A stretch of 64,000 nucleotides of DNA. Source: an uncultured Gammaproteobacteria bacterium. Lineage in GTDB: Bacteria > Patescibacteriota > Microgenomatia > Levybacterales > UBA12049. A model generated the notes under the pieces. That model saw only the letters and a program-made list of their open reading frames with translations, searched no databases and had not been told where the DNA came from. The stretch is from contig CAZWXQ010000001.1 of assembly GCA_964637955.1 (NCBI GenBank), forward strand, positions 292,849-356,848, read 5' to 3'. The number at the start of each line of letters is the position of its first letter. Positions within the stretch are counted from its first letter, which is position 1. A program made the translations under genes and the position numbers. This document shows, piece by piece, positions 1,888-62,418 of the stretch.

Positions 1888-1900
1888 TTATTATTTATCA

Positions 1901-5045: not shown

Positions 5046-5104
5046 TCCCCATGGCTCCGTTAGTGCCCAGTATTAAATATTTAGTCAAATGTTAAAATGT
5101 ATCT

Positions 5105-47993: not shown

Positions 47994-49713
47994 ATTTATA
48001 GATATAAGTATTATTGTATTTCTTAACTAATTTTAATTTTGAATTACTATTTAACTTTTCAATTATCTTTCCACCCTTATCAATTTTTTTATTATTAATA
48101 ATGAAGCCATCATTATGGAGCATATCGTATTGATCTTTATGAACAATAATATAGTCCAATCCTAATGATCTTAATTGAGTAATTGTTTTATCCGATGGAA
48201 ATGTTTCATCAAGGTTGTAAGCTAATTTTTGCCAAGGTTCTGGAGTGAATCCTCCACCACCATTCATGGTTCTTCTATAATTTATCGTTGAATAATAAAG
48301 TCTCCATAGTTCAATTGTCGCATAATCAGTCATGTTCCAATTATATATAGGCATCTCAAGATAAATAGAGTCTTTTGGAGTCGTAGAGAGGAAGTGGTGT
48401 TCTGGAGGGAAATCTTTTACTGTTGGCATTGGGATTAGTTTCATGGGGAATCTTAGTTCTGCAACGCAACCTAAGATTAATAGCGCATAAATTATAAACT
48501 TTTTACTTTTATCCTGTCCTTCAAGTATTTTTGTAAATACTATGCTTATTACTATTGCAGCTCCAATCATGAAAAGCATTTCCCATCTTGCTGAGTTTCG
48601 AAAGCCCTGAAAACCTGGAATCAGATAGTAAAAAAGTGCATATGGCAAAGGAATTATGGAGGGATTATGAATTGTTTGACGACCCATATGCAAAACAGGT
48701 CCAAGGCTTAATATAAAGCCTAGAATTGAAATTGATAGAAATGAATTTAGATTTACATTTTTTTTCTTAAGATTTTTAAATGCATAGATAAAACTAAAAA
48801 TAACTAAGATTGAAAATACTGCCCCTAAAAATCCTGGCTTAAATTCATTATTTTGTGAAAACCTATTTATCGGTAAAGAGTTTAAAGTAGTATCGAGTTT
48901 TGAAAAATCAGAAGAATAAAGCATATCTTCTGGTTGGATAGCAAAATGAACAGTATCTTTTAAAGTTCTTACATAACCAAATTCCTTTGAGATTCGAAAA
49001 TAAGGAATCATAATTGGAATAATTGCCGACATGAAAAGTATAAAAATTAGAATATTCTTTTTTGAAACTGCTTTTAAAGTTTCTTTTTTATCAAACAGCC
49101 AGTTAAAGAAAAATATTATTAAATAAGAAATGAGAATAAAATAACCAGCGAGGAAATTGTTATACGTTTGAAGTACTAAAAACATAAAAGAAATTATGAG
49201 GTGTTTAGTTTTTTTACTCTTCATGAAATTGATGAAAAATAAAAGAGAAAGAGGAGTAAGTACTATAAAAAGCATCTGGAGGTGGGCATAGAAACTAAGA
49301 TATGCTGGGGAAAAAATTACTAAAATTCCAGCTAAGATTGATGCGAAGAAATCCTTTGTAATTCTGTAAGCCAATAAATAAAGTGAGAAGCCTGTTAAAA
49401 CTATTCCGGAAATTACGATAAAGTTATTTGTAATTATTGGCTCTTTAGTAATAAGATATGGAATCATAGAAAAAAGAGCGGTAATTATATTTGGATCAGA
49501 TGAAGCAGGTCCTATTTGATAGGGATAAAAAATATTTGTTGTAAAAATATTTTGGATATTACCAGTTAGTACTGATTGAATAATCCATGTATGAATCCAA
49601 GTGTAGATAAAATTATCTCCGTAACCCGTCGTTAGAGTAGTCAGATGAAATGCCCACGGAAAAGTAATAAAAATTCCAGAGATTAAAAATATTAAAAAAG
49701 CTAATAGTTTCAC
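47983..49713 (-). CDS. large polytopic membrane protein, GT-C-fold glycosyltransferase-like (ArnT/PMT/YfhO-like)
   Basis: 576 aa, more than 10 TM helices with C-terminal soluble domain; assignment by architecture only. Confidence 0.4.
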   Translation of the reverse strand: MKLLAFLIFLISGIFITFPWAFHLTTLTTGYGDNFIYTWIHTWIIQSVLTGNIQNIFTTNIFYPYQIGPASSDPNIITALFSMIPYLITKEPIITNNFIVISGIVLTGFSLYLLAYRITKDFFASILAGILVIFSPAYLSFYAHLQMLFIVLTPLSLLFFINFMKSKKTKHLIISFMFLVLQTYNNFLAGYFILISYLIIFFFNWLFDKKETLKAVSKKNILIFILFMSAIIPIMIPYFRISKEFGYVRTLKDTVHFAIQPEDMLYSSDFSKLDTTLNSLPINRFSQNNEFKPGFLGAVFSILVIFSFIYAFKNLKKKNVNLNSFLSISILGFILSLGPVLHMGRQTIHNPSIIPLPYALFYYLIPGFQGFRNSARWEMLFMIGAAIVISIVFTKILEGQDKSKKFIIYALLILGCVAELRFPMKLIPMPTVKDFPPEHHFLSTTPKDSIYLEMPIYNWNMTDYATIELWRLYYSTINYRRTMNGGGGFTPEPWQKLAYNLDETFPSDKTITQLRSLGLDYIIVHKDQYDMLHNDGFIINNKKIDKGGKIIEKLNSNSKLKLVKKYNNTYIYKFIF

Positions 49714-49757
49714 AAATTTTTCTCATTCTAGCATATGATGAGGGGTTTGCAATTGAT

Positions 49758-50852
49758 TTAGCTTGAGTATTTTTGATAAAGATCATTAATCATTCTTAAT
49801 TCATTGTAATTTCGTGTCTGATCTTTAAGAGTTACGTTTTCAAGCTGGTCTGTTACTGCTTGAGATTCTATGAAGTTATCGAGTACGCTTTTTTTCCATC
49901 CAGCTTCAATCTCTCCTATACTTAATCCAGAAATTTCTTCCATACTTTGAATAAAATTTTGTCGATTTACATTTCCGACCCATCTCTTGAAATTGTTAAC
50001 CCCAAATGTATCTATAAAGTACTTTATAAAAGATCCACCTTTTAAATAATCTGAATCATTTGGGGAGGTATCGTATCTGTCTAAAATATTATCTGTTTCG
50101 CTCGACAAGCTAAAGCAATTTGCTATTGAAAAATCAGTACGTCCTTTTTGGTTTATCATTTTTATTAGTTGGTCATCGCTTATCTTTTTCCATTCGCCCA
50201 TGAAGTCGGTGAATTTATCTCTTGCATGATTGATCATGTGGAGCCTTAAGTAGTCATGAGCATCTTTTCCTGACCCAAAATGATCAAAAAATGTAGCTAA
50301 GCCTTCATGTAGAAATGGAATGAAATAGGCTTCCTTGGAGAATAATGCAGGAGCAAGAATTCCATGTCCAATTGCCTCATGCAAACTTGTTGTATAGGCC
50401 GCAGGAGTCAATTCTGAATCAGGTTTTTTTCTAGTGGTTGTTTTACTGAAGCGAGCATGACTCCAGCTGCTCGAAGTAGGGCTTTCGCGGCCATACGTGT
50501 GTAAGCCATTAATTAATCCATTTCGGTCTCGTCTGGAAACTCGAACTACCTGGAAAGTGTCAGGCATTTCAATTTGGAATAAATCTTTAGCTATTTTTAA
50601 TCCTCCTTCAAGATAATATGCCATGTCTTCCGGACCTTGAAGCGTTGGAGTATCAAAATCCTCGTAGATTTTATTATCCTGAAAAATTACTATAAAGTGG
50701 GGTGACTGCGCATAATGAATATCTGGATGTTTTATGCGATCAAGATCTAATCCGTCAATAATTTTCTGTCTCTCTGGTATGTGGGTTGGTTTTACAGATA
50801 CTTCAGGTGAACCCTCGTAGGTTACATTTTTTTGTGCATCACCAGATTCCAT
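49758..50852 (-). CDS. hypothetical protein (364 aa)
   Basis: Clean ORF; HEAIGHG segment is not a canonical HExxH. Confidence 0.45.
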   Translation of the reverse strand: MESGDAQKNVTYEGSPEVSVKPTHIPERQKIIDGLDLDRIKHPDIHYAQSPHFIVIFQDNKIYEDFDTPTLQGPEDMAYYLEGGLKIAKDLFQIEMPDTFQVVRVSRRDRNGLINGLHTYGRESPTSSSWSHARFSKTTTRKKPDSELTPAAYTTSLHEAIGHGILAPALFSKEAYFIPFLHEGLATFFDHFGSGKDAHDYLRLHMINHARDKFTDFMGEWKKISDDQLIKMINQKGRTDFSIANCFSLSSETDNILDRYDTSPNDSDYLKGGSFIKYFIDTFGVNNFKRWVGNVNRQNFIQSMEEISGLSIGEIEAGWKKSVLDNFIESQAVTDQLENVTLKDQTRNYNELRMINDLYQKYSS

Positions 50853-50967
50853 TTAAATATTAAATCAAAATATGCTCTCAATAACAATTTAACTTTCAGA
50901 ACCTCATTCATCTTTAATATGTTTTGTGTTACGATTTAGATAGCACCTTTCAGGGTGTTTAATTACT

Positions 50968-52650
50968 ATGTTACTGCCCGATAGTCAGATTTTGGAGCTT
51001 CTAAAACAGTCTGGTTTGGTTGATCAGAAGACAATGCAGGATGTTGTGGTTTCTGCCGCTAATGCAAGAATTCCTCTACAAGAAGCTGTGATTGAAAAAA
51101 ATGTTATTACAGACGATAAACTTGGTCAGCTTATCGCAAACTTCATAAAGTATCCTTTTGTAGTTCTGGATAAAAGTCAGATTCCCGAGGAAGTGTTTCG
51201 AATAGTTCCTGAAAGAATCGCTAGAAAGCATAGGATTGTCGCTTTTGCCAAAGATGCTACTGGAGTAAAAATGGCAATGGCTGATCCTGTCCACATAAAA
51301 CTTGCTGATTCTATTTCTAAAAAAACCCAAAGAAAAGTAACTGTGTTTATGGCTACAGAGAGAAACATAGAGAACGTGCTCCAGCTTTATAGAAAAAATC
51401 TCCAAACAACTTTTGATGATCTTTTGCAGGAAGAAATTACTAGAACAAATACTACCATGGATGATGCCCCAATCATTAAGATTGTTGATCTACTTATCGC
51501 TTATGCATATCGCGAAAAGGCATCAGATATTCATATTGAGCCTGAAGAAAAAAATTCATTGGTTAGATTCCGAACAGATGGAATTTTACATGACGTGCTT
51601 TATGTAGATAAAAAATTGCACGATAGAATTATTACTAGAATTAAAGTTTTGTCGCGTCTTAGAACAGATGAGCACATGAGTGCTCAGGATGGAAAACTCC
51701 GAACTATAGTTGATGAAGACAGTTTGGATATTCGTGTTTCCATAATTCCAGTTACTGAAGGAGAGAAAGGGGTTCTTAGACTTTTATCATCGCAATTTAG
51801 GCAGTATTCTCTTCATGATCTTGGGATGAATGATAAAGATCTTATGAAAGTAAATAATGGAGTAAATAAATCTTATGGCATGATTCTTTCAACCGGTCCA
51901 ACTGGTTCTGGAAAGACAACTTCAATTTATTCGATTTTAAATATCCTAAATACTAGAGATAGGAATATTACGACCATTGAGGACCCCGTTGAGTACAGGA
52001 TGAAGGGCGTAAATCAGATTCAGGTAAATGAAAAAGCAAATCTTACTTTTGCGAATGGATTAAGGTCTGTTCTTCGTCAGGATCCCAATGTTATTTTTGT
52101 GGGTGAAATCAGAGATGGTGAAACAGCAGGGATTGCGGTAAATGCTGCGCTCACGGGCCATTTGGTGGTTTCGACAGTTCATACAAATGATGCAGCGACC
52201 ACGCTTCCTAGATTAGTGGACATGAAAGTAGAGCCATTTCTTGTGGCATCAACTATTAATGTAATTATCGCTCAAAGACTTGTGAGAAAAATTTGTGAGT
52301 CCTGCAAGATTCCAGTTGTTATAAAAAGATCTGAGTTAATTAAGGAAATTCCTGAAGTTACTATCGCGAAGCATTTTGGTCTTGGGGAGGATCTAAAAGG
52401 ATTTGAAGGCAAGGGTTGTAAGATTTGTCATGCTACTGGTTATTCTGGTCGTATTGGTATTTTTGAAATAATTTCTATGTCTGAAAAAATAAAATCCCTT
52501 ATCGCTCAAAAGAAAGACTCAAATGAAATAAAAAAAGAAGCAATAGCAGAAGGAATGACTACAATGCTTGAAGATGGAATGGATAAAGCAGCAAAAGGCT
52601 TAACAACGGTTAAGGAAGTGTTTAGAGCTACAAAAGCTGAAGCAACTTAA
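50968..52650 (+). CDS. pilB: type IV pilus assembly ATPase PilB (GspE family)
   Basis: N-terminal GSPII_E_N-like domain, Walker A GPTGSGKTT, Asp/His boxes, tetracysteine motif CESCK...CKICHATG. Confidence 0.92.
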   Translation: MLLPDSQILELLKQSGLVDQKTMQDVVVSAANARIPLQEAVIEKNVITDDKLGQLIANFIKYPFVVLDKSQIPEEVFRIVPERIARKHRIVAFAKDATGVKMAMADPVHIKLADSISKKTQRKVTVFMATERNIENVLQLYRKNLQTTFDDLLQEEITRTNTTMDDAPIIKIVDLLIAYAYREKASDIHIEPEEKNSLVRFRTDGILHDVLYVDKKLHDRIITRIKVLSRLRTDEHMSAQDGKLRTIVDEDSLDIRVSIIPVTEGEKGVLRLLSSQFRQYSLHDLGMNDKDLMKVNNGVNKSYGMILSTGPTGSGKTTSIYSILNILNTRDRNITTIEDPVEYRMKGVNQIQVNEKANLTFANGLRSVLRQDPNVIFVGEIRDGETAGIAVNAALTGHLVVSTVHTNDAATTLPRLVDMKVEPFLVASTINVIIAQRLVRKICESCKIPVVIKRSELIKEIPEVTIAKHFGLGEDLKGFEGKGCKICHATGYSGRIGIFEIISMSEKIKSLIAQKKDSNEIKKEAIAEGMTTMLEDGMDKAAKGLTTVKEVFRATKAEAT

Positions 52651-52653
52651 AAT

Positions 52654-53709
52654 ATGTTTAAGAGGTCAAAAATTACTTTAAAAAACTCAGAGAAATTAAA
52701 TTTACTTAGTAATTTATCTACAATGATTTCTTCTGGTATTCCTATTCTTGAAACAGTTGATTCTCTGCTCGAAGATTCAAAAGGCGGCACACAAAAAGTT
52801 CTCCAAATAATACGCGAAGATATGCTTCAAGGAAACCATCTTTACACTTCGTTTACAAAGTTTCCTGATATTTTCGATAAAGTTACAGTAAATGTAATAA
52901 GAGCTTCAGAGGAGGCTGGAACGCTTGATGTTACTTTGAAAGATATTAGAGATCAGCTCGAAAAAGAAATTGAATTCCAGGATAAGCTTAAGTCCGCGAT
53001 GATTTATCCTATTTTTATTGTAATTGTATTCTTTGGCGTTATGGTGATGATGCTCGTTGTAGTAATGCCTAAAATTTCGACAGTATTCTCAAGACTTAAA
53101 GTAGACCTACCTCTCCCAACTCGCATTATGATAGCAATGTCAGATATAGTTACGCAGTATACAATTCCTCTATTGGCTGGAACCTTGGTGTTGGTATTTT
53201 TCATGATAATTCTTTATCGAGCACAGAAAAAAAGAATATTAGGCATGGTTTATAAATTGCCATTGATTTCAACATTGGTTAAGGAAATTGATTTAGCACA
53301 TTTTTCGAGAAGTATGTTCTTGCTTTTATCTTCAGGAATTACTATTACAAACGCTCTTGAATTATCTCAGGAGGTTGTAATGAGAAAAGATATTGCCAAA
53401 GCGATTGCTCACGCAAAAGAAACTGTTCTTTCGGGAAAAAATTTATCTCAAGGATTTAGAGACGAAAAAAAGATTTTTTCTGGAATAATTATAAAACTAG
53501 TAGAAGCAGGTGAAAAAACAGGAACTTTAGACAAGTCTTTGGCTGATGTATCGAAGCAGATGGATTATAAAGTTAGCAACACGCTCACGACACTAACCGC
53601 AATGCTTGAGCCGGTAATGCTTGTTGCTGTAGGAATTTTAGTGGGTGGAATGATGCTAGCAATAATCGCTCCTATTTATGGATTAATTGGAAAAGTTGGA
53701 GCAAGGTAA
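52654..53709 (+). CDS. pilC: type IV pilus platform protein PilC (GspF family)
   Basis: 351 aa; duplicated GspF domains, 3 TM helices. Confidence 0.88.
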   Translation: MFKRSKITLKNSEKLNLLSNLSTMISSGIPILETVDSLLEDSKGGTQKVLQIIREDMLQGNHLYTSFTKFPDIFDKVTVNVIRASEEAGTLDVTLKDIRDQLEKEIEFQDKLKSAMIYPIFIVIVFFGVMVMMLVVVMPKISTVFSRLKVDLPLPTRIMIAMSDIVTQYTIPLLAGTLVLVFFMIILYRAQKKRILGMVYKLPLISTLVKEIDLAHFSRSMFLLLSSGITITNALELSQEVVMRKDIAKAIAHAKETVLSGKNLSQGFRDEKKIFSGIIIKLVEAGEKTGTLDKSLADVSKQMDYKVSNTLTTLTAMLEPVMLVAVGILVGGMMLAIIAPIYGLIGKVGAR

Positions 53710-53710
53710 A

Positions 53711-54289
53711 ATGGCAAATCAAAAAATTTGGTTAAAGAAAGATTCGAATAAAGGTTTTATACAGCACCAATTAAATAGGTATTGGTTTAGATCATTGAAT
53801 CAAAAAGCAAAATATGATGCTGGATTTACTTTAATAGAGCTTTTGGTGGTCATTACGATTAGTTCAATTTTGTTCGCGTTAATCGCTTTTAATTTGGCTG
53901 GAATCCAAGATAGAACTGCTCATCGTGCGGGTGTAAATACAATTATTTCTGATTTAAAGCTCCAACAAATAAAAGCAATGACTGGCTCAACTGAAGGTAG
54001 AAGTGCGAGCGATAATTATGGAATTTATTTTATGACAGATCGATACGTATTGTTTCATGGAAATTCCTATAGCGCATCAGAGCCAACAAATTTTACAATC
54101 GAACTGCCTGAAAACATTCGAATACAAAGCACGGCTTTCCCTGGAAATTCTGTATTGTTTTCGAAAGTAAGCGGAGAAGTTGCAGGTTTTACTTCTGGTA
54201 ATAACACAATAGTAATAAGAGAAACAAATTTAAATAGTGATAAGACTATAACTATTAATAGATATGGTGTAATTACATCTGTAAATTAA
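53711..54289 (+). CDS. prepilin-type N-terminal cleavage/methylation domain protein (minor pilin/pseudopilin)
   Basis: Class III signal ...AG|FTLIELLVVITISSIL with Glu+5; unusually long (about 38 aa) leader. Confidence 0.7.
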   Translation: MANQKIWLKKDSNKGFIQHQLNRYWFRSLNQKAKYDAGFTLIELLVVITISSILFALIAFNLAGIQDRTAHRAGVNTIISDLKLQQIKAMTGSTEGRSASDNYGIYFMTDRYVLFHGNSYSASEPTNFTIELPENIRIQSTAFPGNSVLFSKVSGEVAGFTSGNNTIVIRETNLNSDKTITINRYGVITSVN

Positions 54290-57271
54290 ATGAAAATATT
54301 TAATTTTTTAAAAAGCAAAAAGGGTAATTCTATAGTTGAGATTCTACTCGTGATAGGACTTGCAGCAATTCTTATTCCGGCAATATTAACTGGCATTGTT
54401 GCTACGAGAGAGGGGAGAGCTCAACATGATCAAAGGGTTGAGGCAGTTTCTATGTTAACAAATGCTCAAGAGGCTGTTAAAAGTATTGCTTTAAGGAATT
54501 GGGCGCTTGTTGCTACAAATGGAACTTTTCATCCCACGATTTCTGGAAACGCATGGATTCTTTCAAATGGATCCATAACCCAAAATGGATATACAACAAG
54601 TGTTGTAGTAAGTGATGTCTATAGAGACGGTACTGGTGCAGTTGTATCAAGTGGGGGCACTCTTGATCCAGCTACAAAACAAGTTACAACCACTATTTCC
54701 TGGACGACGCCGTTTAATTCTCAGGTATCAGCTATCTCATATTTTTCTCGTTATAAAAATCAAGTGTATACAGAAACAACTGCTGCGCAGTTTACTGCCG
54801 GTACGCTAATAAATACGCAGGTAACAAATGTTTCTGGTGGTGAAGTTAAATTAACTAATAATAATAAAGCTAAATGGTGTTCTCCTGCTTTTAATTCGGC
54901 TACGATTGATTTGCCTGATGGACCACCTGTAGCAGTTGCAGCTACCGCGAGTGCTACTTCTGTAAATACACCAAATGACGCTTACGTGGCAGTCTCTCCG
55001 CTTACTACAAATTCAATTAAGATGGTACATGTAAATGTAACTGCTAATACAGATCCGCCAACGACTTCTCAAAGAGGTAAATTTACATTAAATTCATCTG
55101 AATACAGTAATCCTTCATATGTTCCTTCTGGACTTGATCTAACTAATACTTTTAAAACCAATGATGTGAAGTATTATAAATCAGCTGGCGGCAACACTTA
55201 CGCTCTCATTGCAACAGATTTACCGACCAAAGAAGTTATTGCTGTTTGGGTTAACGACGGAGATTCCAGTAACGATAATAATACATCTGGAGAATTCCAA
55301 GATCCCGTAAATAAAATTTATAAGTATAAAACATTCTTTAATACAAGAATATTTAACTCAGCAGCAGGTTTGGATACCGGTTTTATTAATCCATCTGGTA
55401 ATTCTTCCGAAACTTCAAGCGCAGGAGATAATAATGGGTTTCAGTCAAATCCTACAAGAGCTTATTCAGATAATAATTCATTTGCAGTGGATACAGATAG
55501 TGGTAGTGGTACAGGAACTAGTTGTACAGGAGCTGATAAGGATAAGCATCGTTTTTATAATTACAGCCTACCACTTGCATCTGGTGTAACTATAAATGGA
55601 ATTGAATTACGCCTAGATGCAAGAGTTGATAGCGTGACAGGTTCACCTTTTGAATGTGTACAGCTTTCATGGGATGGAGGTACTTCCTGGACAACTGCAA
55701 AGAGTACATCAAATCTTACTACTGGTGAAGTTACATATACTTTGGGTGGTTCTGCTGATACATGGGGACGTACTTGGACTACGTCAAATCTGTCTAATTC
55801 TAATTTTCGTGTTCGTGTAGTTAATGTTGCAAGTAATACATCTCGTGATTTTTCTCTGGACTATGTTGGAGTGAAAGTTTATTACAGCGGAGTTTCAGCT
55901 ACAAATGATCAGGCGCCGTTTGATTATGGAGCAAAATCTATAACAGTGCTTGGAGATAAAGGCTATGTAGCTTCTGGAGGATATTTATATACTTTTGATT
56001 TAAGTAATATTGACAGTAAATCCTCATCTGCAGAGCTTGATCAGGTCGGATGTAGAATTGAAATTCAGGGATATGATTGCAAGCCTGGAGCTTCAGCGAG
56101 TAGTTTAAAGTACGATATAGGAGAGACTGGAACTTCATGGAGCGATGTAGGATCACCTGCACATAATGACTGTTCTGATGGGGGAAATATTGAGTTAAAT
56201 GCCGACAATCATATCACAGGTGTACAGGTGGGAGGAAGTAATTATATATATGTTGCAGTTGGAGCTGGATATGATTCCGAGCTAAACATAGTAAATGCAA
56301 CAAACGTACCAGATTTAGCTTCAGCTCCGGCTATAAATAGTAATAGTTGCGGAAGATCAACTGGAGGTCATGCTGGGTGGAAATTGGTTGGTTCACTTGA
56401 TTTTAATTCTAGACCAGGCACAGAAGAAGCTGCGAATTCTGTATATGTCAAATCTGATGGGACGCGGGCATATATATCTTCAAATGGAGGAATTGATGCA
56501 AATAGTGATGGTACGCCAGACAGTAAACAGTTCTATGTAATTAACACTACAAATAAAACTTCTCCTGCATTCTTAGCAGGGGCCCCAGGATCTCCTACAT
56601 ATGGTCCAACGAGTGGGTTCTACTATGGAACTGGAGCTAATGCAGATTTATTTCCAAGACGCTCCCTTACGGTTCTTAACGGAGATAGGGTAGTTCTTGT
56701 GGGAAGTGATGGAAAAAGTAATGTTGATGATGCGCAGGAATATCAGGTATTAAATAGCGAGGTAGAAACAGCACCTGCATATTGTGCGGGACTTAATTTC
56801 GATCAAGGCTTTAACGACTTAACCTCAGTCACCGAAGCTGATACAGATAATTATGTTTACATGGTAGCGAACACCAACTTAAATGAGCTTAAGATTATTG
56901 AGGGGGGTCCTGATAATGCCCTTTATGTTGCCTCAGGTACATTTGAATCGCAAACTTTTGACGCATCTGCTGGGAATATGTTTAATAGATTTTTTGCGAC
57001 GAGCACAGTTCCGTCAAATACAACATTAACTTATCAGGTTGCAATTGCCGATGCTGTAAGTGGAAGTTGTAGTGGAGCATCTTATAACTACATCGGTCCT
57101 GATGGAACAAATAATTCATTTTTTTCATCGGCCTCAGAGTTGCCTAAAAATGACGATGGCTCTGGATTTGAGAACCCAGGTAGATGCATGAGATATAAAG
57201 TTTATATGTCATCAGTAGATCAACAGCAGACTCCAGTGCTTCAAGATTTTGGAGTAAATTATTCATACTAA
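54290..57271 (+). CDS. giant (993 aa) prepilin-like protein, putative pilus-associated adhesin
   Basis: N-terminus KKG|NSIVEILLVIGLAAIL (Gly-1, Glu+5, hydrophobic helix) followed by about 950 aa of Thr/Ser/Gly/Asn-rich beta-type sequence. Confidence 0.7.
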   Translation: MKIFNFLKSKKGNSIVEILLVIGLAAILIPAILTGIVATREGRAQHDQRVEAVSMLTNAQEAVKSIALRNWALVATNGTFHPTISGNAWILSNGSITQNGYTTSVVVSDVYRDGTGAVVSSGGTLDPATKQVTTTISWTTPFNSQVSAISYFSRYKNQVYTETTAAQFTAGTLINTQVTNVSGGEVKLTNNNKAKWCSPAFNSATIDLPDGPPVAVAATASATSVNTPNDAYVAVSPLTTNSIKMVHVNVTANTDPPTTSQRGKFTLNSSEYSNPSYVPSGLDLTNTFKTNDVKYYKSAGGNTYALIATDLPTKEVIAVWVNDGDSSNDNNTSGEFQDPVNKIYKYKTFFNTRIFNSAAGLDTGFINPSGNSSETSSAGDNNGFQSNPTRAYSDNNSFAVDTDSGSGTGTSCTGADKDKHRFYNYSLPLASGVTINGIELRLDARVDSVTGSPFECVQLSWDGGTSWTTAKSTSNLTTGEVTYTLGGSADTWGRTWTTSNLSNSNFRVRVVNVASNTSRDFSLDYVGVKVYYSGVSATNDQAPFDYGAKSITVLGDKGYVASGGYLYTFDLSNIDSKSSSAELDQVGCRIEIQGYDCKPGASASSLKYDIGETGTSWSDVGSPAHNDCSDGGNIELNADNHITGVQVGGSNYIYVAVGAGYDSELNIVNATNVPDLASAPAINSNSCGRSTGGHAGWKLVGSLDFNSRPGTEEAANSVYVKSDGTRAYISSNGGIDANSDGTPDSKQFYVINTTNKTSPAFLAGAPGSPTYGPTSGFYYGTGANADLFPRRSLTVLNGDRVVLVGSDGKSNVDDAQEYQVLNSEVETAPAYCAGLNFDQGFNDLTSVTEADTDNYVYMVANTNLNELKIIEGGPDNALYVASGTFESQTFDASAGNMFNRFFATSTVPSNTTLTYQVAIADAVSGSCSGASYNYIGPDGTNNSFFSSASELPKNDDGSGFENPGRCMRYKVYMSSVDQQQTPVLQDFGVNYSY

Positions 57272-57279
57272 GATTTTTT

Positions 57280-57801
57280 ATGAAAATTAATTTTTTGACA
57301 CATATAAGAATTAGAAGAAAATCGTCGGGTTTTACATTAATTGAGCTTCTTATTTATATGGGATTATTTTCAATATTAACTACGATTACTCTTCAATTAT
57401 TTGCGACAATTTTTGATGCTGAGACTGAGGCGGAAGCAGTTTCCTCGATAACAAGTGACAGTAAATTTATTATGAATAGATTTACATATGATCTTAATCG
57501 GTCTTCAAGTGTTACGACGCCTGTTAGCTTAGGGACTCAAAGTGCCACACTAACTATGGTTATAAATTCACAAAATCTAAGATATAGTCTAGACAGTGGA
57601 AATCTTAAATTAGATAACCTCACAACTGGCACTTCTGATAATTTAAATACAAATGAGACTACGGTTTCAAACTTATCTTTCATAAGACTTGATGGGGGAG
57701 GAAATGATGCTGTTCAAATTACATTTACTCTTACGTCAGTCGCAACAGATACTTCAGGTAAGCAAATTAAAACGTATACCACATCAGGAGGAATTAGATA
57801 A
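57280..57801 (+). CDS. minor pilin (prepilin N-terminal domain)
   Basis: SSG|FTLIELLIYMGLFSIL. Confidence 0.7.
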   Translation: MKINFLTHIRIRRKSSGFTLIELLIYMGLFSILTTITLQLFATIFDAETEAEAVSSITSDSKFIMNRFTYDLNRSSSVTTPVSLGTQSATLTMVINSQNLRYSLDSGNLKLDNLTTGTSDNLNTNETTVSNLSFIRLDGGGNDAVQITFTLTSVATDTSGKQIKTYTTSGGIR

Positions 57802-58172
57802 TGCAAAAAGAAAGTCAAAAAGGTCAATCGTTAATAACGATTTTATTTTTTGTGGTAATTTCAATTACTATTATTACTGCAATATCATCTATTATTTTAA
57901 ATAGCACTTCGACTGGTTCTAGCATTGAGCAAGGTAGTATTGCATATTATAGTGCTGAGTCAGGAGCCCAAAATGCAATATTAAGACTACTTAGGGATCC
58001 AAATTATACAGGGGAAACCATGAGTCTTAATGATGGTACTGTGACAATAGTTGTTAGCGGAGGTGTAATCACGTCAACTGCTCATGTGGCAAATTCCATT
58101 AGGAAAATAGAAGTCCAAACAGGATACAATAATAATATTCTTACAATTTCATCATGGAAAGAGATAAATTAA
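57801..58172 (+). CDS. pilin-like/pseudopilin-like membrane-anchored protein (degenerate prepilin motif)
   Basis: KG|QSLITILFFVVISITII, Thr instead of Glu at +5; 123 aa. Confidence 0.4.
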   Translation: MQKESQKGQSLITILFFVVISITIITAISSIILNSTSTGSSIEQGSIAYYSAESGAQNAILRLLRDPNYTGETMSLNDGTVTIVVSGGVITSTAHVANSIRKIEVQTGYNNNILTISSWKEIN

Positions 58173-58990
58173 AAAAAGAAATTTCTAAAAAACCAAGCGG
58201 AATTTTCTTCGTAGATGGAGCTAGGGCATTTTACTTTGAGCAAAGTTTAAGTGCTCCAATTCCGCTTGAGATTACACTAGATATTTTTAATGATCTAGAG
58301 CTAATTAATAGGAAAAAGCTGGAAACATTAATTAAAAATTTTATAATTTCCCAAAAGCTTGGGCCTAAGAATATAATCCTTCTTCTATCAGCACAGTTAA
58401 CTTTTGACAAGGATTTTCCTCGTGGATCAATTGAGGTTGAGAAAAATATAGAAGAATTTCTAGAGCTTGTTCCTTTCGAGCAAGTAATTAGCAAAAAAGC
58501 TTTATTTGCAGGGAGAACTAAAGTAATCGCTGCGAATAAGGAATTTTGTGACGCAATAAAAGCTACGTTTATAAATTCAGGTTTTATAGTAAGTGGGATT
58601 TATCCGCTGTCTCTTTGTCTTGAGCTTGCTCCAGAACTTCAATCAAGTATGGATTTAAATTTGGTCATTAATAAGGTTCCTGACTTAAAAGATTTTAATC
58701 TTATGCCAACGCCTGAAATGGCAATAAATTCTCCAGATAAAGAAAAGCCTGACAAAATTAGACTTTACTTAATGATTGGGTTAATGTTAATTCTTGGTAT
58801 AGTTATGGTATTTCTTTTATACAGAAATATTTTGGCCCCCGAAAAATCCAAGAAATCAAATATTCTTCCGACAGTAATGCCAGTAGTTGAAAAAATTGAA
58901 AAAGAAATTCCTGCGACATCATCAGCGGATTTTGAATCTTCAGAATCTGCAGAGCTTTCTGTTACAAAAATTCCAACACAAATTCGCTAA
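58154..58990 (+). CDS. pilus assembly protein, PilM/PilN-like (bitopic)
   Basis: About 190-aa cytoplasmic domain, single TM (LYLMIGLMLILGIVMVFLLY), short acidic extracytoplasmic tail; assignment by position/topology. Confidence 0.3.
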   Translation: MERDKLKKEISKKPSGIFFVDGARAFYFEQSLSAPIPLEITLDIFNDLELINRKKLETLIKNFIISQKLGPKNIILLLSAQLTFDKDFPRGSIEVEKNIEEFLELVPFEQVISKKALFAGRTKVIAANKEFCDAIKATFINSGFIVSGIYPLSLCLELAPELQSSMDLNLVINKVPDLKDFNLMPTPEMAINSPDKEKPDKIRLYLMIGLMLILGIVMVFLLYRNILAPEKSKKSNILPTVMPVVEKIEKEIPATSSADFESSESAELSVTKIPTQIR

Positions 58991-59020
58991 ATTGCTCCAA
59001 TTTAGCTTCAAAATTACCCC

Positions 59021-59050
59021 TTGACAATTAGTTTAAGTCATGGCAATAAT
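59021..59050 (+). promoter_or_regulatory. candidate promoter for major pilin gene (TTGACA-18-AATAAT)
   Basis: TTGACA 59021-59026; AATAAT 59045-59050; start codon 10 nt downstream (short leader, no SD). Confidence 0.3.
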
Positions 59051-59059
59051 AGATTATAA

Positions 59060-59536
59060 ATGAAAAACATAAGTGCAAATAATTCAAAAAGAGGTTTCAC
59101 ATTAATAGAGCTTTTAGTAGTAATTGGTATTCTCGCTATTCTTCTTTCAATTGTTCTTATTGCTATTAATCCAGCAAGACAATTTGGACAAGCAAATGAT
59201 ACAAAAAGAACAAGTGCAGTAACGCAAATCCTTAATGCAATCGGTGCATATCAAGCAAGTAACAAGGGAAATCTACCTGCAGAGGTATCAGGTTTAACAG
59301 TTGGCACACCGGAATTACTTAATGATACTAATTTTCCAAATCTTTGTGCAGAATTAGTTCCAGATTATATCCCAGCTCTTCCTACAGATCCATCACTTAA
59401 CACTCCTGATATCGAATTGGCTGATTGCGGAGCATACAATACTGGATACACGATTACATTAAAAGCAAACAATAGAGTTACTATTACAGCTCCTCAAACA
59501 GAAGTAGCAGCAACTCCAATCGAGATCACAAGATAA
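59060..59536 (+). CDS. type IV major pilin (PilA-like)
   Basis: 158 aa; short leader MKNISANNSKRG|FTLIELLVVIGILAILLSIVLIAINP, Cys pair near C-terminus (C...C) for a disulfide loop. Confidence 0.8.
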   Translation: MKNISANNSKRGFTLIELLVVIGILAILLSIVLIAINPARQFGQANDTKRTSAVTQILNAIGAYQASNKGNLPAEVSGLTVGTPELLNDTNFPNLCAELVPDYIPALPTDPSLNTPDIELADCGAYNTGYTITLKANNRVTITAPQTEVAATPIEITR

Positions 59537-59568
59537 CTTGTAAAATCTTCAGAATTTAAGCATCATTT

Positions 59569-60627
59569 TTAATCACTTATATTAAAATAGTGAATTGGTA
59601 TATCAAGGAAAGGATTGAAAGCAATAATAAATCTGTCAGGAGTTAATCCCAACTGTGATTTAAGATTTTTAAAGTAAGCAACTTGTGTCTCAATCATTGC
59701 AAGATCAACAGAGCTGATGTCTGAATTCCTAATTATTTCGGGTACAGAAACACCAATCATTCCACTTTCCATTCTGCTTGTCTGATCATGGACAGCTAAT
59801 ATCATTTCTTCTATTACCGGAAGTCTATCTTTTCCTTTAGGCATGCCTGTTTTAACTAAAGTTTCTGCATGGGCGGTCATTATTTGTTCTTCGTGTTCTG
59901 TCTCAGCTGTTGAGCTTGGAATTTCCAAAAAATCCATTCGAGAAACTTTTTCTCTAATAATTAATCCCGCTTGAGTTTGATCCATTTCTTCATCTCCGGT
60001 TACTAGAAGTTTATTTTCTCTAAGAAATTCAATAAGATTTTCATTTCGTATTAAAAAAATTCCATCACTTGACTTTTCCATTATTTTTTTTCTGATTTCT
60101 AAGGCTTTTTTTTCAATTCGAGGGTCTGCTACTAGAGCTATATAGAAAGTATCTACTTTATGTTCAGGATTCTCAGCTCTTAGCCTTAAGGTGCTTAGTC
60201 CTCTATCGGTTACTCCTACTCCAACATTTTCTGCAATTAATACTTTTCCTTCAGGAAGTTTCGCCAATCTTTTTTCGATCATATCATGATAATGATAAGA
60301 GAAAGGAATAGACCATTCTGTATCCCAGTATGATCTTGGTCCTATGTCATATTTTTCTTGTGTATCGACCAGAGCATCATCAAAAAATATGGTATCTGCA
60401 GATTTTTGGCCATTAGTTAGAGAAGGAAGTGCAGCGCCAAATTGAGTTACAACAGTAGTTTTGCCACCCCTGGGTGGGCCAAATATCTCTATCAATTCAA
60501 TTTCATTTTCACTAATTTCAAATATGATTCTCTCTAATATACTTTTACCATTACCTTCAACTATGTTTCTTAAAATTTCCGTAGCGGGTTCAGGCGGTGG
60601 AAGCGGTTCTGTAAAAATTTCATGCAT
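59569..60627 (-). CDS. P-loop NTPase-domain hypothetical protein
   Basis: GPPRGGKTTVV Walker A at about aa 50; 352 aa; 8-bp overlap with the upstream His-phosphatase gene. Confidence 0.45.
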   Translation of the reverse strand: MHEIFTEPLPPPEPATEILRNIVEGNGKSILERIIFEISENEIELIEIFGPPRGGKTTVVTQFGAALPSLTNGQKSADTIFFDDALVDTQEKYDIGPRSYWDTEWSIPFSYHYHDMIEKRLAKLPEGKVLIAENVGVGVTDRGLSTLRLRAENPEHKVDTFYIALVADPRIEKKALEIRKKIMEKSSDGIFLIRNENLIEFLRENKLLVTGDEEMDQTQAGLIIREKVSRMDFLEIPSSTAETEHEEQIMTAHAETLVKTGMPKGKDRLPVIEEMILAVHDQTSRMESGMIGVSVPEIIRNSDISSVDLAMIETQVAYFKNLKSQLGLTPDRFIIAFNPFLDIPIHYFNISD

Positions 60628-61267
60628 ATATTTTAACCTTCTTATTTCGATATCTTAAATATTTAGTAGCATTATTAATATTAATTTCCATTATTTCGCC
60701 ATACTTAGGAGATCTCGAAAAATTTGGGAAGAATTTTGATTGAAAAGCCATTAAAGTTGTTTCATGTGTAATAGCAATTAAATCAGTGAGAGTCGAAACT
60801 TCTTTGGATTCAGAAAATCTATATACAGAGTCAATAACCTCAGCTGGGGTTTGAATTTTATTTTCTTTTAGAATTTCGGGCGATAATTTTATCCAAGTTT
60901 CGAGTGCATTTTGCAGAGGATAACCTAGATCTAAAACTTTATGTATTGAGTCTGCTGTTTGAAAAATTTTTCTTGCACCAGATTTTTGGAAGCTAATTTT
61001 CGATAACTTATTTTGAGTTTTTAATCTTCTTAATTCAGTCTCTAGTCGAATGCCGGACTCCTTAGCTCTTTTTCTACTGCTGTAAAAAATTCTAACAGTG
61101 TGTTCCTCATCGTCAGATATACATTCAATTATTTTGTTCGCGTTTAATAATATCTGAGAGACTCCATTTCTGCTGAGTCTGCTATTGCTGAAGCCGTATG
61201 TGACTGGCTGAGCATGCCTCATTAGGTAAATTCGAAGATACTTTTCAGTTGTGCTTGAACTTTTCAT
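60620..61267 (-). CDS. histidine phosphatase superfamily (SixA/PGM-like) protein
   Basis: IYLMRHAQP (RHG-type motif) and AITHET second His region; 4-bp overlap with the HK gene stop. Confidence 0.5.
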   Translation of the reverse strand: MKSSSTTEKYLRIYLMRHAQPVTYGFSNSRLSRNGVSQILLNANKIIECISDDEEHTVRIFYSSRKRAKESGIRLETELRRLKTQNKLSKISFQKSGARKIFQTADSIHKVLDLGYPLQNALETWIKLSPEILKENKIQTPAEVIDSVYRFSESKEVSTLTDLIAITHETTLMAFQSKFFPNFSRSPKYGEIMEININNATKYLRYRNKKVKIYA

Positions 61268-62418
61268 TTTAGCTTTGGTAATGTAACTGAAACTAAAGTG
61301 CCATGATTTTCTTCGGAAGTAACTGTTATTTTTCCATGATGTTTTATAATTATTTTTTTAATTAAATATAGTCCAAGTCCCATACCTGATTTCGTATGTC
61401 CTTTCCCCTTATAAAATTCATTAAATATATTTGGAATTTCTTCTTTTTTTATGCCAGTTCCATTATCTTCGACTGAAATTTTAATTTTTCCTTCTTGTTC
61501 ACTTAAACTAACTTGGATTAGTTTTTCCCAAACATTATGCTTTGCAGCATTATCTAGGAGATTAATTATTACTTGCATTAGCTTATTCGGGTCTCCAATT
61601 AATTTAATAACATTTAGCCCTGTTTTATTTTTAAATTGTACTTTTGATTTTTTATGACTTACCTTGAATGACTGTAATGATTTTTCTATAATCTCAACGA
61701 TATTTAATTCCTCAAACTCGAATTTAAAGTTGCCAGTTTTTATTTGGCTAAGTAATAAAAGTTCATCGATTAATTTTGTTAGTCGGGTCATTTCGTAAAG
61801 CAAGTTATTTATCCACTCGATATCAAATTCTTCTCCTTTTTTAACTTTATTTTTTAGGAGTTGAGTATAAATGTACATTGTCGTTATTGGAGTTTTGAGT
61901 TCGTGTGAGGCCATTGAAATAAATAAATCTCTTGTATTTAGCGCGTTTTCGACTTCATGATAAAGTTGTGCTTTTCTAATTGCTAGAGATGCGAAAGGAG
62001 TAATGAAATTTAATATTTCCTGATCGCTTTTAGTGAATCTTTTCTTTTTTGTATGCACAGAAATTACGCCAATTGATTTGCCTCTATTTATTAAAGGTGC
62101 CATAAGATCATATTTTGTTTCAGTATCTCCAATTTCTGGATGAATCTTATATATTTCTGAAAAGTTAAGGATTAGAGGCTTTTGAGTTTTAAAAACAGTA
62201 TAAGTGTAACCATCTTTTCGAGGACTGATAGTATTTAGATGATGGGACGTAGAGTAAACCCTTTTTAGTTGATTTTTTTCTGCCATGAATATCGACGCAT
62301 CAGTACCGTTCAATAGTAAAATTACCTCCTTAGCGATCTCTTTATAGGTAGAGTCTAGATTTAACGGTGTAAGGAACTTTAGTGTTGATTTATAGACTAA
62401 ATCTAAAGATTTTTTCAT
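61264..62418 (-). CDS. sensor histidine kinase (cytoplasmic, GAF-like N-terminal domain + HisKA + HATPase_c)
   Basis: H-box SMASHELKTPIT, N-box NLLDNAAKH, G1 DNGTGI, G2 GLGLYLIKKI; no TM helices. Confidence 0.85.
   Translation of the reverse strand: MKKSLDLVYKSTLKFLTPLNLDSTYKEIAKEVILLLNGTDASIFMAEKNQLKRVYSTSHHLNTISPRKDGYTYTVFKTQKPLILNFSEIYKIHPEIGDTETKYDLMAPLINRGKSIGVISVHTKKKRFTKSDQEILNFITPFASLAIRKAQLYHEVENALNTRDLFISMASHELKTPITTMYIYTQLLKNKVKKGEEFDIEWINNLLYEMTRLTKLIDELLLLSQIKTGNFKFEFEELNIVEIIEKSLQSFKVSHKKSKVQFKNKTGLNVIKLIGDPNKLMQVIINLLDNAAKHNVWEKLIQVSLSEQEGKIKISVEDNGTGIKKEEIPNIFNEFYKGKGHTKSGMGLGLYLIKKIIIKHHGKITVTSEENHGTLVSVTLPKLK

What the first reader, a model, noticed from the sequence alone, without database searches (positions are those of the whole stretch)
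50968..59536. Type IV pilus locus: pilB-pilC, five prepilin-like genes, a PilM/N-like gene and a major pilin
The nine same-strand genes are contiguous. A GspE-family ATPase and a GspF platform protein are followed by four ORFs with class III signal peptides (G|FTLIE, G|NSIVE) and one with a degenerate motif. Then come a bitopic assembly-like protein and a separately promoted major pilin. No prepilin peptidase (PilD) or retraction ATPase (PilT) lies inside the window. The arrangement resembles the compact, Gram-positive/CPR-style Tfp locus implicated in episymbiont attachment and DNA uptake.
Basis: partly seen in the sequence, partly recalled or inferred. Interest (0 to 1): 0.6.

Follow-up and report, generated by a model that had tools for sequence, protein, structure and literature searches.

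The report
Microgenomates type IV pilus operon
This is a real type IV pilus gene cluster from an ultrasmall Patescibacteria (Microgenomates) bacterium; such clusters are known, and the main point of interest is a 993-residue pilin that probably carries an adhesin at the pilus tip.

Summary
The cluster is real, but it has eight genes, not nine. They are:
- PilB ATPase (T2SSE, E 4.5e-125).
- PilC platform (T2SSF).
- Three pilin-like genes with conserved class III signal peptides (192, 993 and 173 aa).
- A 123-aa pilin-like gene that keeps Gly-1 but never has Glu+5.
- A 278-aa bitopic protein whose cytoplasmic domain folds like PilM/GspL.
- A 158-aa major pilin behind a 69-nt gap holding the best promoter-like site in the region.

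No PilD, PilT, PilN/O or secretin is encoded among the window's ORFs of at least 90 aa. The same gene order recurs in most of 72 related loci. Every informatively titled record is Microgenomates or Patescibacteria.

The new detail is the 993-aa protein, a modular pilin. It has an N-terminal pilin module, a roughly seven-bladed beta-propeller and a C-terminal beta-sandwich. The propeller is interrupted by a ~175-aa Asp-box domain that has no Pfam, NCBIfam or PDB match. That domain is 55-65% identical to domains of surface proteins in other phyla. Relatives lack it, or carry a different domain at the same site.

Verdict: a new member of a known kind, of moderate interest.

The parts
50968..52650 (+). 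PilB-type assembly ATPase (560 aa) with an N-terminal MshEN/T2SSE_N domain
   Evidence: Pfam T2SSE E 4.5e-125 and MshEN E 3.4e-14. The best NCBIfam match is type_IV_pilB, 524 bits, below the equivalog cut-off of 675.65; GspE scores 507 bits. Walker A GPTGSGKT is at residue 310, a Walker-B-like VIFVGEIRD at 375, and two CxxC motifs at 443 and 484, the tetracysteine motif typical of PilB/GspE. Related loci are 52-75% identical.
52654..53709 (+). PilC/GspF platform protein (351 aa)
   Evidence: Pfam T2SSF E 3.6e-48 in two stretches. NCBIfam GspF, PilC and ComGB all match below their cut-offs. It starts 3 nt after the pilB stop.
53711..54289 (+). Minor pilin (192 aa), GspH/ComGD-like; the start codon is uncertain
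   Evidence: N_methyl E 3e-8. Weak ComGD (1.3e-7) and GspH (1e-5) matches. The G|F(S/T)xxE motif is conserved in the orthologues inspected. The ATG at 53711 was used by a gene caller. In-frame TTG codons at 53687 and 53795 would give a 44- or 10-residue leader.
54290..57271 (+). Giant modular pilin (993 aa) with a class III signal peptide KG|NSIVE. Predicted layout: alpha-1 helix at residues 14-69, pilin beta-sheet at 78-153, beta-propeller at ~196-355 plus ~540-880, and a C-terminal beta-sandwich at 881-993
   Evidence: No Pfam, NCBIfam or PHROG hit. The AlphaFold2 model has mean pLDDT 85.2, with a 56-residue N-terminal helix, a small sheet and then all-beta structure. Foldseek against PDB returns only generic beta-propellers. 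The KG|Q(S/T)L(V/I)E motif is conserved in the orthologues inspected. All 10 Cys are invariant in 70 orthologues. Distant homologues hit the LVIVD repeat (E 4e-12) and weakly N_methyl. Full-length identity across Microgenomates is 55-74%.
55361..55894 (+). Inserted ~175-aa Asp-box beta-sandwich domain (residues 358-535 of the giant pilin) that interrupts the propeller
   Evidence: It is a separate homology unit, 55-65% identical to domains, often C-terminal, in hundreds of proteins of other architectures. Partner domains include PA14, PKD, fn3, Kelch, CARDB, He_PIG and CHAP. Source names include Chloroflexota/Anaerolineae, Methylobacter, Micromonosporaceae and Hodarchaeales. No Pfam model covers it. 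A profile search finds no PDB sequence relative; the best is E 0.14, an Asp-box motif in sialidases. It is present in 43 related loci and absent in 22. L059 carries a different domain at exactly the same site.
57280..57801 (+). Minor pilin (173 aa)
   Evidence: N_methyl E 5.5e-8. Weak ComGE, ComGF and GspJ matches. The KG|FTL(V/I)E motif is conserved in most orthologues inspected.
57801..58172 (+). Glu5-less pilin-like protein (123 aa), a candidate tip or cap subunit analogous to GspK/PilX/ComGG
   Evidence: No family hit. The N-terminus is KG|QSLITILFFVV. In the 12 orthologues inspected (63 were collected), Gly-1 and the hydrophobic helix are kept and position +5 is always T or S, never E. 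It overlaps the upstream gene by 1 nt and the downstream gene by 19 nt.
58154..58990 (+). Bitopic PilM/GspL-like assembly protein (278 aa): cytoplasmic truncated actin-like domain (~15-185), one TM helix (201-227) and a short Pro/Ser/Thr-rich external tail
   Evidence: No sequence-family hit. The AlphaFold2 model has pLDDT about 85-90 over residues 15-185 and a disordered tail. Foldseek against PDB: PilM 5eox E 2.3e-6, GspL cytoplasmic domain 4pht E 3.4e-5, Thermus PilM 2ych E 5e-5, EpsL 1yf5 E 6e-5, then FtsA. The alignment of 29 homologues shows a conserved N-domain and TM helix and a variable tail.
58986..59050 (+). Intergenic control region: a 9-bp-stem palindrome (58986-59006) that overlaps the pilM-like stop codon, then a sigma-70-like site TTGACA-18-AATAAT (59021-59050)
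   Evidence: The promoter-like site scores 11/12, the best match on either strand in 50700-59800. It lies 10 nt upstream of the major-pilin ATG. The total count of such sites is not above the shuffled expectation, so only its position is suggestive.
59060..59536 (+). Major pilin (158 aa; 12-residue leader MKNISANNSKRG|FTLIELLVVIGILA)
   Evidence: N_methyl E 1.5e-9. GspG-like over residues 11-111, E 5.9e-9, below the cut-off. Weak PDB hits to the N-termini of type IV pilins. It is the last gene in most related loci, 46-68% identical over full-length matches, and often duplicated in tandem.

Best explanation
This is the core operon of a monoderm-type type IV pilus (type IV filament) from a Microgenomates (Patescibacteria/CPR) bacterium.

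Shown here: it encodes a PilB ATPase, a PilC platform, a bitopic protein with a PilM/GspL-fold cytoplasmic domain, one abundant-type pilin gene set apart behind a promoter-like site, and four minor pilin-like proteins.

Inferred mechanism:
1. A prepilin peptidase encoded elsewhere cleaves the pilins after the conserved Gly.
2. The four minor pilins form the priming or tip complex on PilC. They are the GspH/ComGD-like 192-aa protein, the 993-aa modular pilin, the 173-aa protein and the Glu5-less 123-aa cap.
3. PilB, tethered to the membrane by the PilM/GspL-like protein, then polymerises the 158-aa major pilin beneath them.
4. This places the 993-aa pilin at the filament tip. Its bulky propeller, Asp-box and beta-sandwich head cannot fit in the filament body.
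5. The head acts as the ligand-binding adhesin, most likely for a glycan on a host cell or surface. It would be the functional counterpart of PilY1 and of Saccharibacteria PilX2.

Whether the pilus retracts is unknown, because no PilT gene lies nearby.
For: Machinery:
- T2SSE, MshEN, T2SSF and N_methyl hits are above threshold.
- PilB has Walker A, Walker B and tetracysteine motifs.
- The 278-aa protein has a PilM/GspL fold plus one TM helix.

Operon:
- Gaps of 0-8 nt or overlaps link the first seven genes. A 69-nt gap with the best promoter-like match precedes the major pilin.
- These eight families are the only ones shared by 53 or more of the 72 related loci, and the commonest pattern has the same order.

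Pilin nature of the 993-aa protein:
- A conserved G|Q/N-S-L/I-V-E motif.
- A predicted 56-residue alpha-1 helix plus a small sheet.
- N_methyl hits in orthologues.

Adhesin reading:
- All 10 Cys are invariant.
- Distant homologues carry LVIVD propeller repeats and a ConA-like Laminin_G_3 domain.
- A different domain sits at the same propeller site in L059.
- The Asp-box domain otherwise occurs in multidomain surface proteins alongside PA14, PKD, CARDB and Kelch.

Precedents:
- In Nanosynbacter lyticus TM7x the propeller-bearing pilin PilX2 is needed for efficient host binding (PMC11623550).
- Modular pilins with grafted lectin or vWA modules are widespread and are thought to be tip-located (PMC8179133).
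- Type IV pilus genes are enriched across CPR genomes (PMC6744442).
Against: - No prepilin peptidase, PilT, PilN/PilO or competence genes lie in the 64-kb window. No second PilB-like gene lies within 10 kb in any related locus. Processing and retraction therefore rest on genes not seen.
- The 993-aa protein has no significant sequence match to any characterised pilin beyond the N-terminal motif. The profile search against PDB gives E 0.013 at best.
- PilY1 is not among the top 50 fold hits. Those hits are generic propellers with low TM-scores.
- The propeller and the insert are the most conserved parts of the protein. Mean pairwise identity is 0.64-0.68, against 0.47-0.49 for the pilin module. 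That is the opposite of what a host-specific adhesin under diversifying selection would show.
- Tip location, ligand and expression are all unmeasured.
Confidence: 0.8

Rival explanations
1. The same machine is primarily a competence (DNA-uptake) pilus. The strongly conserved head of the 993-aa pilin would bind DNA, or another invariant ligand, rather than a host glycan, feeding nucleic acid to an organism that cannot make nucleotides.
For: - The minor pilins weakly resemble ComGD, ComGE and ComGF.
- The propeller and insert are more conserved than the pilin module. The whole protein is about as conserved as PilB. That fits an invariant ligand.
- CPR type IV pili are proposed to serve DNA uptake (PMC6744442).
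- An essential pilin lies next to recA in TM7x (PMC11623550).
- recA and recX are in this window at 3954-5614.
Against: - No ComEA, ComEC or DprA is in the window. recA is 45 kb away.
- Homologues carry lectin-type modules (Laminin_G_3; a weak CBM16-like match) where this protein has its insert.
- The gene order differs from comG operons, where the major pilin comes third, and a PilM/GspL-like gene is present.
- PilB carries a full N-terminal region that ComGA does not match: the ComGA model aligns only to residues 176-440.
- TM7x T4P-2 mutants keep wild-type competence.
Confidence: 0.2
2. The 993-aa protein is not polymerised into the filament. It would be a membrane-anchored surface adhesin, or a PilY1-like priming factor, that merely uses a pilin-like N-terminal helix as an anchor.
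For: - N_methyl does not reach significance on this protein.
- Its +1 residue is N or Q rather than F.
- TM7x PilX1 and PilX2 are also predicted to lack canonical PilD signal peptides.
Against: - Gly-1 and Glu+5 are conserved in the orthologues inspected. Glu5 is the residue used for subunit-to-subunit contact in filaments (established pilin biology).
- The gene is embedded between minor pilin genes with 0- and 8-nt spacers.
- The model shows a canonical lollipop pilin module ahead of the head.
Confidence: 0.15
3. The locus is a type II secretion-like pseudopilus that exports proteins, rather than a surface pilus.
For: - Sources name the orthologues 'type II secretion system protein' or 'PulG'.
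- GspE, GspF, GspG and GspH models give hits.
- The 278-aa protein resembles GspL.
Against: - All Gsp hits fall below the equivalog cut-offs, and type_IV_pilB scores higher than GspE.
- No secretin, GspC or GspM is present.
- CPR cells lack an outer membrane (PMC6744442).
- A 993-aa adhesin-like pilin has no known role in a piston-like pseudopilus.
Confidence: 0.05

Closest known systems
Saccharibacteria (Nanosynbacter lyticus TM7x) type IV pili T4P-1/T4P-2 and the minor pilin PilX2 (PMC11623550)
   Same: [quoted passage not shown] In both, the largest minor pilin carries a beta-propeller and is the candidate tip adhesin. A second TM7x pilin (PilX1) carries a jelly-roll module. T4P locus 2 of TM7x also lacks PilT.
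   Different: Here all pilins and the machinery sit in one operon, whereas TM7x splits them over four loci. No separate PilN or PilO is present. The propeller pilin has a canonical Gly-1/Glu+5 motif, while PilX2 is reported as non-canonical. The propeller is LVIVD-like rather than RCC1-like and is interrupted by an extra domain.
Modular type IV pilins (Streptococcus sanguinis PilB and PilC; Raynaud et al. 2021, PMC8179133)
   Same: Both have a class III signal peptide and a small pilin module with bulky functional modules grafted on. In both, the size argues for a tip location. Lectin-type modules are common in this group. That paper also lists an 860-residue Falkowbacteria (CPR) pilin with 12 copies of IPR013211, which I recall to be the LVIVD repeat (from memory, not checked).
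   Different: The head here has three modules (propeller, Asp-box insert, beta-sandwich) totalling about 800 residues. None of them is detected by Pfam in this protein. One module is nested inside another rather than appended.
PilY1 of Pseudomonas and Myxococcus type IVa pili
   Same: Both are large tip-associated proteins with a roughly seven-bladed beta-propeller, encoded among the minor pilin genes and thought to prime assembly and mediate adhesion.
   Different: PilY1 has no pilin N-terminus and is held by the minor pilins. There is no sequence or Pfam match here. PilY1 is not among the top 50 structural matches.
GspL/EpsL of type II secretion and PilM-PilN of type IVa pili
   Same: The 278-aa protein has the truncated actin-like cytoplasmic fold followed by one TM helix. 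That is the GspL topology and the equivalent of a PilM-PilN fusion. Méheust et al. describe a 'GspL domain PilM' family in CPR.
   Different: It is only 278 aa. It has no ferredoxin-like external domain, only a roughly 50-residue disordered Pro/Ser/Thr tail. It has no Pfam PilM, GspL or PilN hit. No PilO or GspM partner is present in the operon.
Com (ComG) competence pilus operon of Firmicutes
   Same: Both are compact monoderm operons that begin with the ATPase and platform genes and include four minor pilins, one of them lacking Glu5. Weak ComGD, ComGE and ComGF profile matches are found.
   Different: The major pilin is last and set apart, not third. A PilM/GspL-like gene is present. PilB is full length with an MshEN domain. 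One minor pilin has 993 residues.

Membership tests
Type IV filament / type IV pilus system | GspE/PilB-family assembly ATPase | tested here: met
   T2SSE E 4.5e-125 against a cut-off of 24.9 bits. Walker A, Walker B and 2x CxxC motifs are present.
Type IV filament / type IV pilus system | GspF/PilC polytopic platform protein | tested here: met
   T2SSF E 3.6e-48 in two stretches.
Type IV filament / type IV pilus system | Pilins with a class III signal peptide (Gly-1, Glu+5, hydrophobic alpha-1 N-terminus) | tested here: met
   N_methyl is above the gathering score in three proteins. The motif is also present in the 993-aa protein and is conserved in the orthologues inspected.
Type IV filament / type IV pilus system | Prepilin peptidase (PilD, Peptidase_A24) | tested here: inconclusive
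   Absent from every ORF of 90 aa or more in the 64-kb window. It is not among the ten gene families recurrent in 9 or more of the 72 related loci that were Pfam-scanned. The rest of the genome could not be searched. PilD is reported as widespread in CPR.
Type IVa pilus (retractile) | PilT retraction ATPase | tested here: inconclusive
   No second T2SSE-family ORF is in the window. No second PilB-like tblastn hit lies within 10 kb in 72 related loci. The rest of the genome was not searchable.
Type IVa pilus | PilM-PilN-PilO alignment subcomplex | tested here: not met
   Only one protein with a PilM/GspL-like fold fused to a TM helix is present. No PilN or PilO Pfam hit occurs in the window.
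Type II secretion system | Secretin GspD plus GspC, GspL and GspM, with GspE and GspG equivalogs | tested here: not met
   No Secretin hit. GspE scores 507 bits against a cut-off of 630, and GspG 36 bits against 88.85.
Com (ComG) competence pilus | ComGA, ComGB, ComGC-GG equivalogs and the comG gene order | tested here: not met
   All ComG models score below their cut-offs: ComGA 249 against 300, ComGB 155 against 240, ComGC 24 against 75. The gene order also differs.
Modular type IV pilin (sensu Raynaud et al. 2021) | [quoted passage not shown] | tested here: met
   The motif KG|NSIVE is present. The AlphaFold2 model shows an alpha-1 helix and sheet followed by propeller, insert and sandwich. 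The insert domain also occurs in non-pilin surface proteins.
PilY1 / Neisseria PilC family | Sequence match to the PilY1 C-terminal propeller; no pilin N-terminus | tested here: not met
   No Pfam or NCBIfam hit at E <= 0.1. The protein has a pilin N-terminus. PilY1 is absent from the top 50 Foldseek hits.
LVIVD-repeat beta-propeller (PF08309) | Pfam LVIVD repeat hits | tested here: inconclusive
   The window protein has no hit at E <= 0.1. Distant homologues that share its N- and C-terminal regions do hit LVIVD: P0199 at E 4e-12 and P0219 at E 4.4e-9.
PilM (PF11104) / GspL cytoplasmic domain (PF05134) | Sequence-profile match; actin-like fold | tested here: inconclusive
   There is no sequence-profile match. 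The fold match to PilM and GspL has probability 1.0 and E 2e-6 to 6e-5, with modest TM-scores of 0.30-0.37.

The most novel reading that the evidence does not exclude
The loop between propeller blades at residues ~356-539 of the giant pilin may be a plug-in site. Microgenomates lineages there carry the ~175-aa Asp-box domain (43 loci), a different PT-linker-flanked domain (L059) or nothing (22 loci). Ligand specificity of the pilus tip would then be set by a swappable cassette.

The Asp-box domain itself may be an undescribed extracellular domain family. It is shared at 55-65% identity by CPR bacteria, Chloroflexota, Proteobacteria and Actinobacteria, and partial copies occur in Asgard archaea. 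That would imply either one highly conserved ligand or recent wide horizontal spread.
Probability: 0.4. Interest if true: 0.55.

Novelty: new member of a known kind. Interest (0 to 1): 0.38.

Why it matters
Type IV pili are thought to be how ultrasmall Patescibacteria find and hold their hosts and take up DNA. Experiments exist only for Saccharibacteria. This locus gives a compact eight-gene blueprint, conserved in order, for the large and uncultivated Microgenomates class.

It also nominates one protein as the likely tip adhesin. That protein is unusually well conserved, which makes it a practical target for antibodies, pull-downs or host-identification experiments across many lineages.

The unannotated Asp-box domain is widespread enough to merit a family definition of its own.

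Tried and rejected
- Sequence searches of the 993-aa and 278-aa proteins against PDB found nothing significant.
- PHROGs found nothing.
- A profile of the insert domain against PDB gave only an insignificant Asp-box resemblance to sialidases, E 0.14.
- A profile of the pilin module against PDB matched only the N-termini of pilins, E 0.013.
- Foldseek of the whole 993-aa model returned generic propellers such as DDB1, phage nozzle proteins and WD40.
- The L059 replacement domain looks CBM-like by eye (NGSFE start). It has no Pfam hit and only an E 0.08 match to a CBM16 structure, so I do not claim it.
- I considered that the nine-gene count might come from a small missed ORF. None of 50 aa or more lies on the + strand between the eight genes.
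- I considered the HExxH-containing membrane protein at 47325-47993 as an alternative peptidase. It has no family hit, and prepilin peptidases are aspartic enzymes.

Full report
**1. Observation**

The interval 50968-59536 holds eight consecutive + strand ORFs, not nine. An independent gene call on a Logan contig carrying the identical locus gives the same genes.

| Gene | Coordinates | Length |
|---|---|---|
| PilB | 50968-52650 | 560 aa |
| PilC | 52654-53709 | 351 aa |
| minor pilin | 53711-54289 | 192 aa |
| giant pilin | 54290-57271 | 993 aa |
| minor pilin | 57280-57801 | 173 aa |
| Glu5-less pilin-like | 57801-58172 | 123 aa |
| PilM/GspL-like | 58154-58990 | 278 aa |
| major pilin | 59060-59536 | 158 aa |

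The first seven genes are separated by 0-8 nt or overlap. A 69-nt gap precedes the eighth.

A six-frame scan finds exactly four canonical class III signal-peptide motifs in the whole 64-kb window, all in this locus. One of them belongs to the last gene.

Pfam and NCBIfam confirm the following:
- PilB: T2SSE E 4.5e-125, MshEN E 3.4e-14.
- PilC: T2SSF E 3.6e-48.
- N_methyl above threshold in the 192-, 173- and 158-aa proteins.

PilB has a Walker A box, a Walker-B-like box and two CxxC motifs.

I scanned 57 ORFs against Pfam: the 49 outside the locus, all of 90 aa or more, and the eight locus genes. There is no Peptidase_A24, no second T2SSE, no secretin and no PilN or PilO.

The surroundings are ordinary chromosomal genes: recA, recX, RNase Y, HU, secA, serS, class I lysS, enolase and ppsA. 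Rfam and ARAGORN find one tRNA and no other RNA gene.

**2. The three genes without family hits**

*The 278-aa protein.* AlphaFold2 on 29 homologues gives a confident N-terminal domain (residues 15-185, pLDDT about 85-90). A helix follows at 201-227, then a disordered Pro/Ser/Thr tail. Foldseek against PDB ranks P. aeruginosa PilM first (E 2.3e-6). Next come the GspL and EpsL cytoplasmic domains (E 3.4e-5 and 6e-5), Thermus PilM (E 5e-5) and FtsA. This is GspL topology without an external domain, in effect a minimal PilM-PilN fusion.

*The 123-aa protein.* In the 12 orthologues inspected (63 were collected), Gly-1 and the hydrophobic helix are kept. Position +5 is always Thr or Ser, never Glu. 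That is the hallmark of the cap subunits GspK, PilX and ComGG (established knowledge). So the motif is a conserved feature and not decay.

*The 993-aa protein.* Its motif is KG|NSIVE here and KG|Q(S/T)L(V/I)E in orthologues. The AlphaFold2 model on 70 orthologues has mean pLDDT 85 and shows these parts:
- A 56-residue alpha-1 helix.
- A small antiparallel sheet (residues 78-153), together forming a lollipop pilin module.
- About 28 strands grouped in fours, consistent with a seven-bladed propeller (~196-355 and ~540-880).
- A beta-sandwich inserted at residues 358-535.
- A C-terminal beta-sandwich at residues 881-993.

Foldseek returns only generic propellers. All ten cysteines are invariant, as expected for an extracellular, disulfide-stabilised protein. 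Distant homologues share the N- and C-terminal regions and hit the LVIVD propeller repeat. One of them has a ConA-like Laminin_G_3 domain in its middle.

**3. The insert**

An exhaustive HMMER search shows that residues 358-535 form their own homology unit. Hundreds of proteins of 180-3100 aa match only this stretch at 55-65% identity, and many end exactly with it.
- Partner domains include PA14, PKD, fn3, Kelch, CARDB, He_PIG, TIG and CHAP.
- Named sources include Chloroflexota/Anaerolineae, Methylobacter, Micromonosporaceae and Hodarchaeales. The Hodarchaeales protein matched in 11 stretches, the best of them covering residues 422-535 of the query.
- No Pfam or NCBIfam model covers the domain, and it has no PDB sequence relative.
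- It contains an Asp-box (SWDGGTSW) and two conserved Cys.

Among 72 related loci, 43 orthologues have the insert and 22 (about 800 aa) lack it, with otherwise collinear sequence. In L059 a different ~165-aa domain flanked by Pro/Thr linkers sits at exactly the same junction, FFNTKIYG...NDQAPFGYG.

**4. Relatives and taxonomy**

A scan of one genome per species recovered 72 loci. All informative titles are Levyibacteriota, Woesebacteria, Shapirobacteria, Gottesmanbacteria, Roizmanbacteria, Microgenomates or Patescibacteria. Many third-party assemblies titled 'uncultured Gammaproteobacteria' carry the same locus and are presumably mislabelled.

The nearest loci (L002-L007, L031) are 74-75% identical in PilB and 60-65% in the giant pilin. 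One of them is titled Levyibacteriota, so the window is probably from that group.

Clustering all ORFs of these loci shows that the eight families are the only ones present in 53 or more loci. The commonest pattern is the window's order. The next most frequent neighbours are a single-domain response regulator (37 loci), a GAF histidine kinase (17 loci) and an Hpt protein (16 loci). They often lie directly upstream of pilB, between pilC and the pilins, or after the major pilin.

**5. Mechanism**

Shown: the parts list, the operon packing, the conserved motifs, the predicted folds and the conserved synteny.

Inferred:
- Pilins are processed by a peptidase encoded elsewhere.
- The four minor pilins prime assembly.
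- PilB drives polymerisation of the 158-aa pilin on PilC, with the PilM/GspL-like protein as membrane tether.
- The 993-aa head is displayed at the tip as the binding module.

The adhesin reading rests on several lines. Lectin-type modules occur in homologues. The insert otherwise occurs in surface proteins. Saccharibacteria PilX2 is a propeller-bearing pilin needed for efficient host binding (PMC11623550). Modular pilins are well documented (PMC8179133).

One observation sits uneasily with a host-specific adhesin. The propeller and insert are more conserved (0.64-0.68 mean pairwise identity) than the pilin module (0.47-0.49). The whole protein is about as conserved as PilB. That favours an invariant ligand, either a common cell-wall glycan or DNA as in the competence rival, or a structural role in assembly.

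**6. Comparison and novelty**

Type IV pili are a known, enriched feature of CPR genomes, including a 'GspL-domain PilM' (PMC6744442). Modular pilins, including a CPR example with many propeller-type repeats, have been catalogued (PMC8179133). The locus is therefore a new member of a known kind.

Three things appear not to have been described:
- The conserved eight-gene Microgenomates arrangement.
- The nested three-module head of its giant pilin, with a variable insertion site.
- The cross-phylum Asp-box domain, which has no family model.

**7. Verdict**

Interest is moderate at 0.38. The locus is ordinary as a pilus locus. The giant pilin and its orphan domain are worth following up.

Noticed in passing
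window 61264-62418 (-), 62916-63590 (-), 45607-46113 (-); related loci L002-L073: A GAF histidine kinase and an OmpR-type response regulator lie 2-4 kb downstream of the major pilin. A single-domain receiver lies 5 kb upstream of pilB. In related loci a single-domain response regulator (37 loci), a GAF histidine kinase (17) and an Hpt protein (16) are the most frequent neighbours. They often sit directly next to or inside the pilus gene block, which suggests a dedicated phosphorelay controlling the pilus.
   Followed up: partly
loci L002-L073 (record titles): Dozens of third-party MAG records titled 'uncultured Gammaproteobacteria', 'Pseudomonadales' or 'Saccharibacteria' carry this Microgenomates-type operon at 53-65% identity with identical gene order. 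The titles are probably placeholder or wrong taxonomy.
   Followed up: no
related loci L029, L049, L052, L058 and others: The major pilin gene is duplicated in tandem, two or three copies, in about 15 related loci. The window has a single copy.
   Followed up: no
window 53687-53830: The start of the 192-aa minor pilin is ambiguous. ATG 53711 gives a 36-residue leader. In-frame TTG codons at 53687 and 53795 would give 44- or 10-residue leaders. Only the last is typical of type IVa pilins.
   Followed up: partly
window 28623-30866 (+): A class I lysyl-tRNA synthetase (tRNA-synt_1f) is fused to a C-terminal B3_4 domain in a 747-aa protein, an unusual architecture.
   Followed up: no
window 5629-7761 (+): A 710-aa protein with a weak PcfJ-like match (E 2.1e-5, just below the gathering score) lies immediately downstream of recA-recX.
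   Followed up: no
window 1816-1887 and 1838-2749 (+): tRNA-Pro(GGG) overlaps the 5' end of the listed methyltransferase ORF, so the real start of that gene must lie further downstream.
   Followed up: no
window 47325-50852: Three genes just upstream of pilB have no Pfam hit. They are a 222-aa membrane protein with an HELAH motif, a 576-aa polytopic membrane protein and a 364-aa protein with an HEAIGH motif. The latter two are also adjacent to pilB in the closest relatives L031 and L003.
   Followed up: partly
window 25523-26512 (+): A cytidylyltransferase-like domain is fused to DUF359 in one 329-aa protein.
   Followed up: no
P0188 / P0439 (Hodarchaeales / Promethearchaeota): Giant Asgard-archaeal surface proteins (3109 and 4148 aa, partial) are involved; the 3109-aa one (P0188) matched in 11 stretches, the best covering the C-terminal half of the insert domain, and also carries Laminin_G_3 and DUF2341.
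   Followed up: partly
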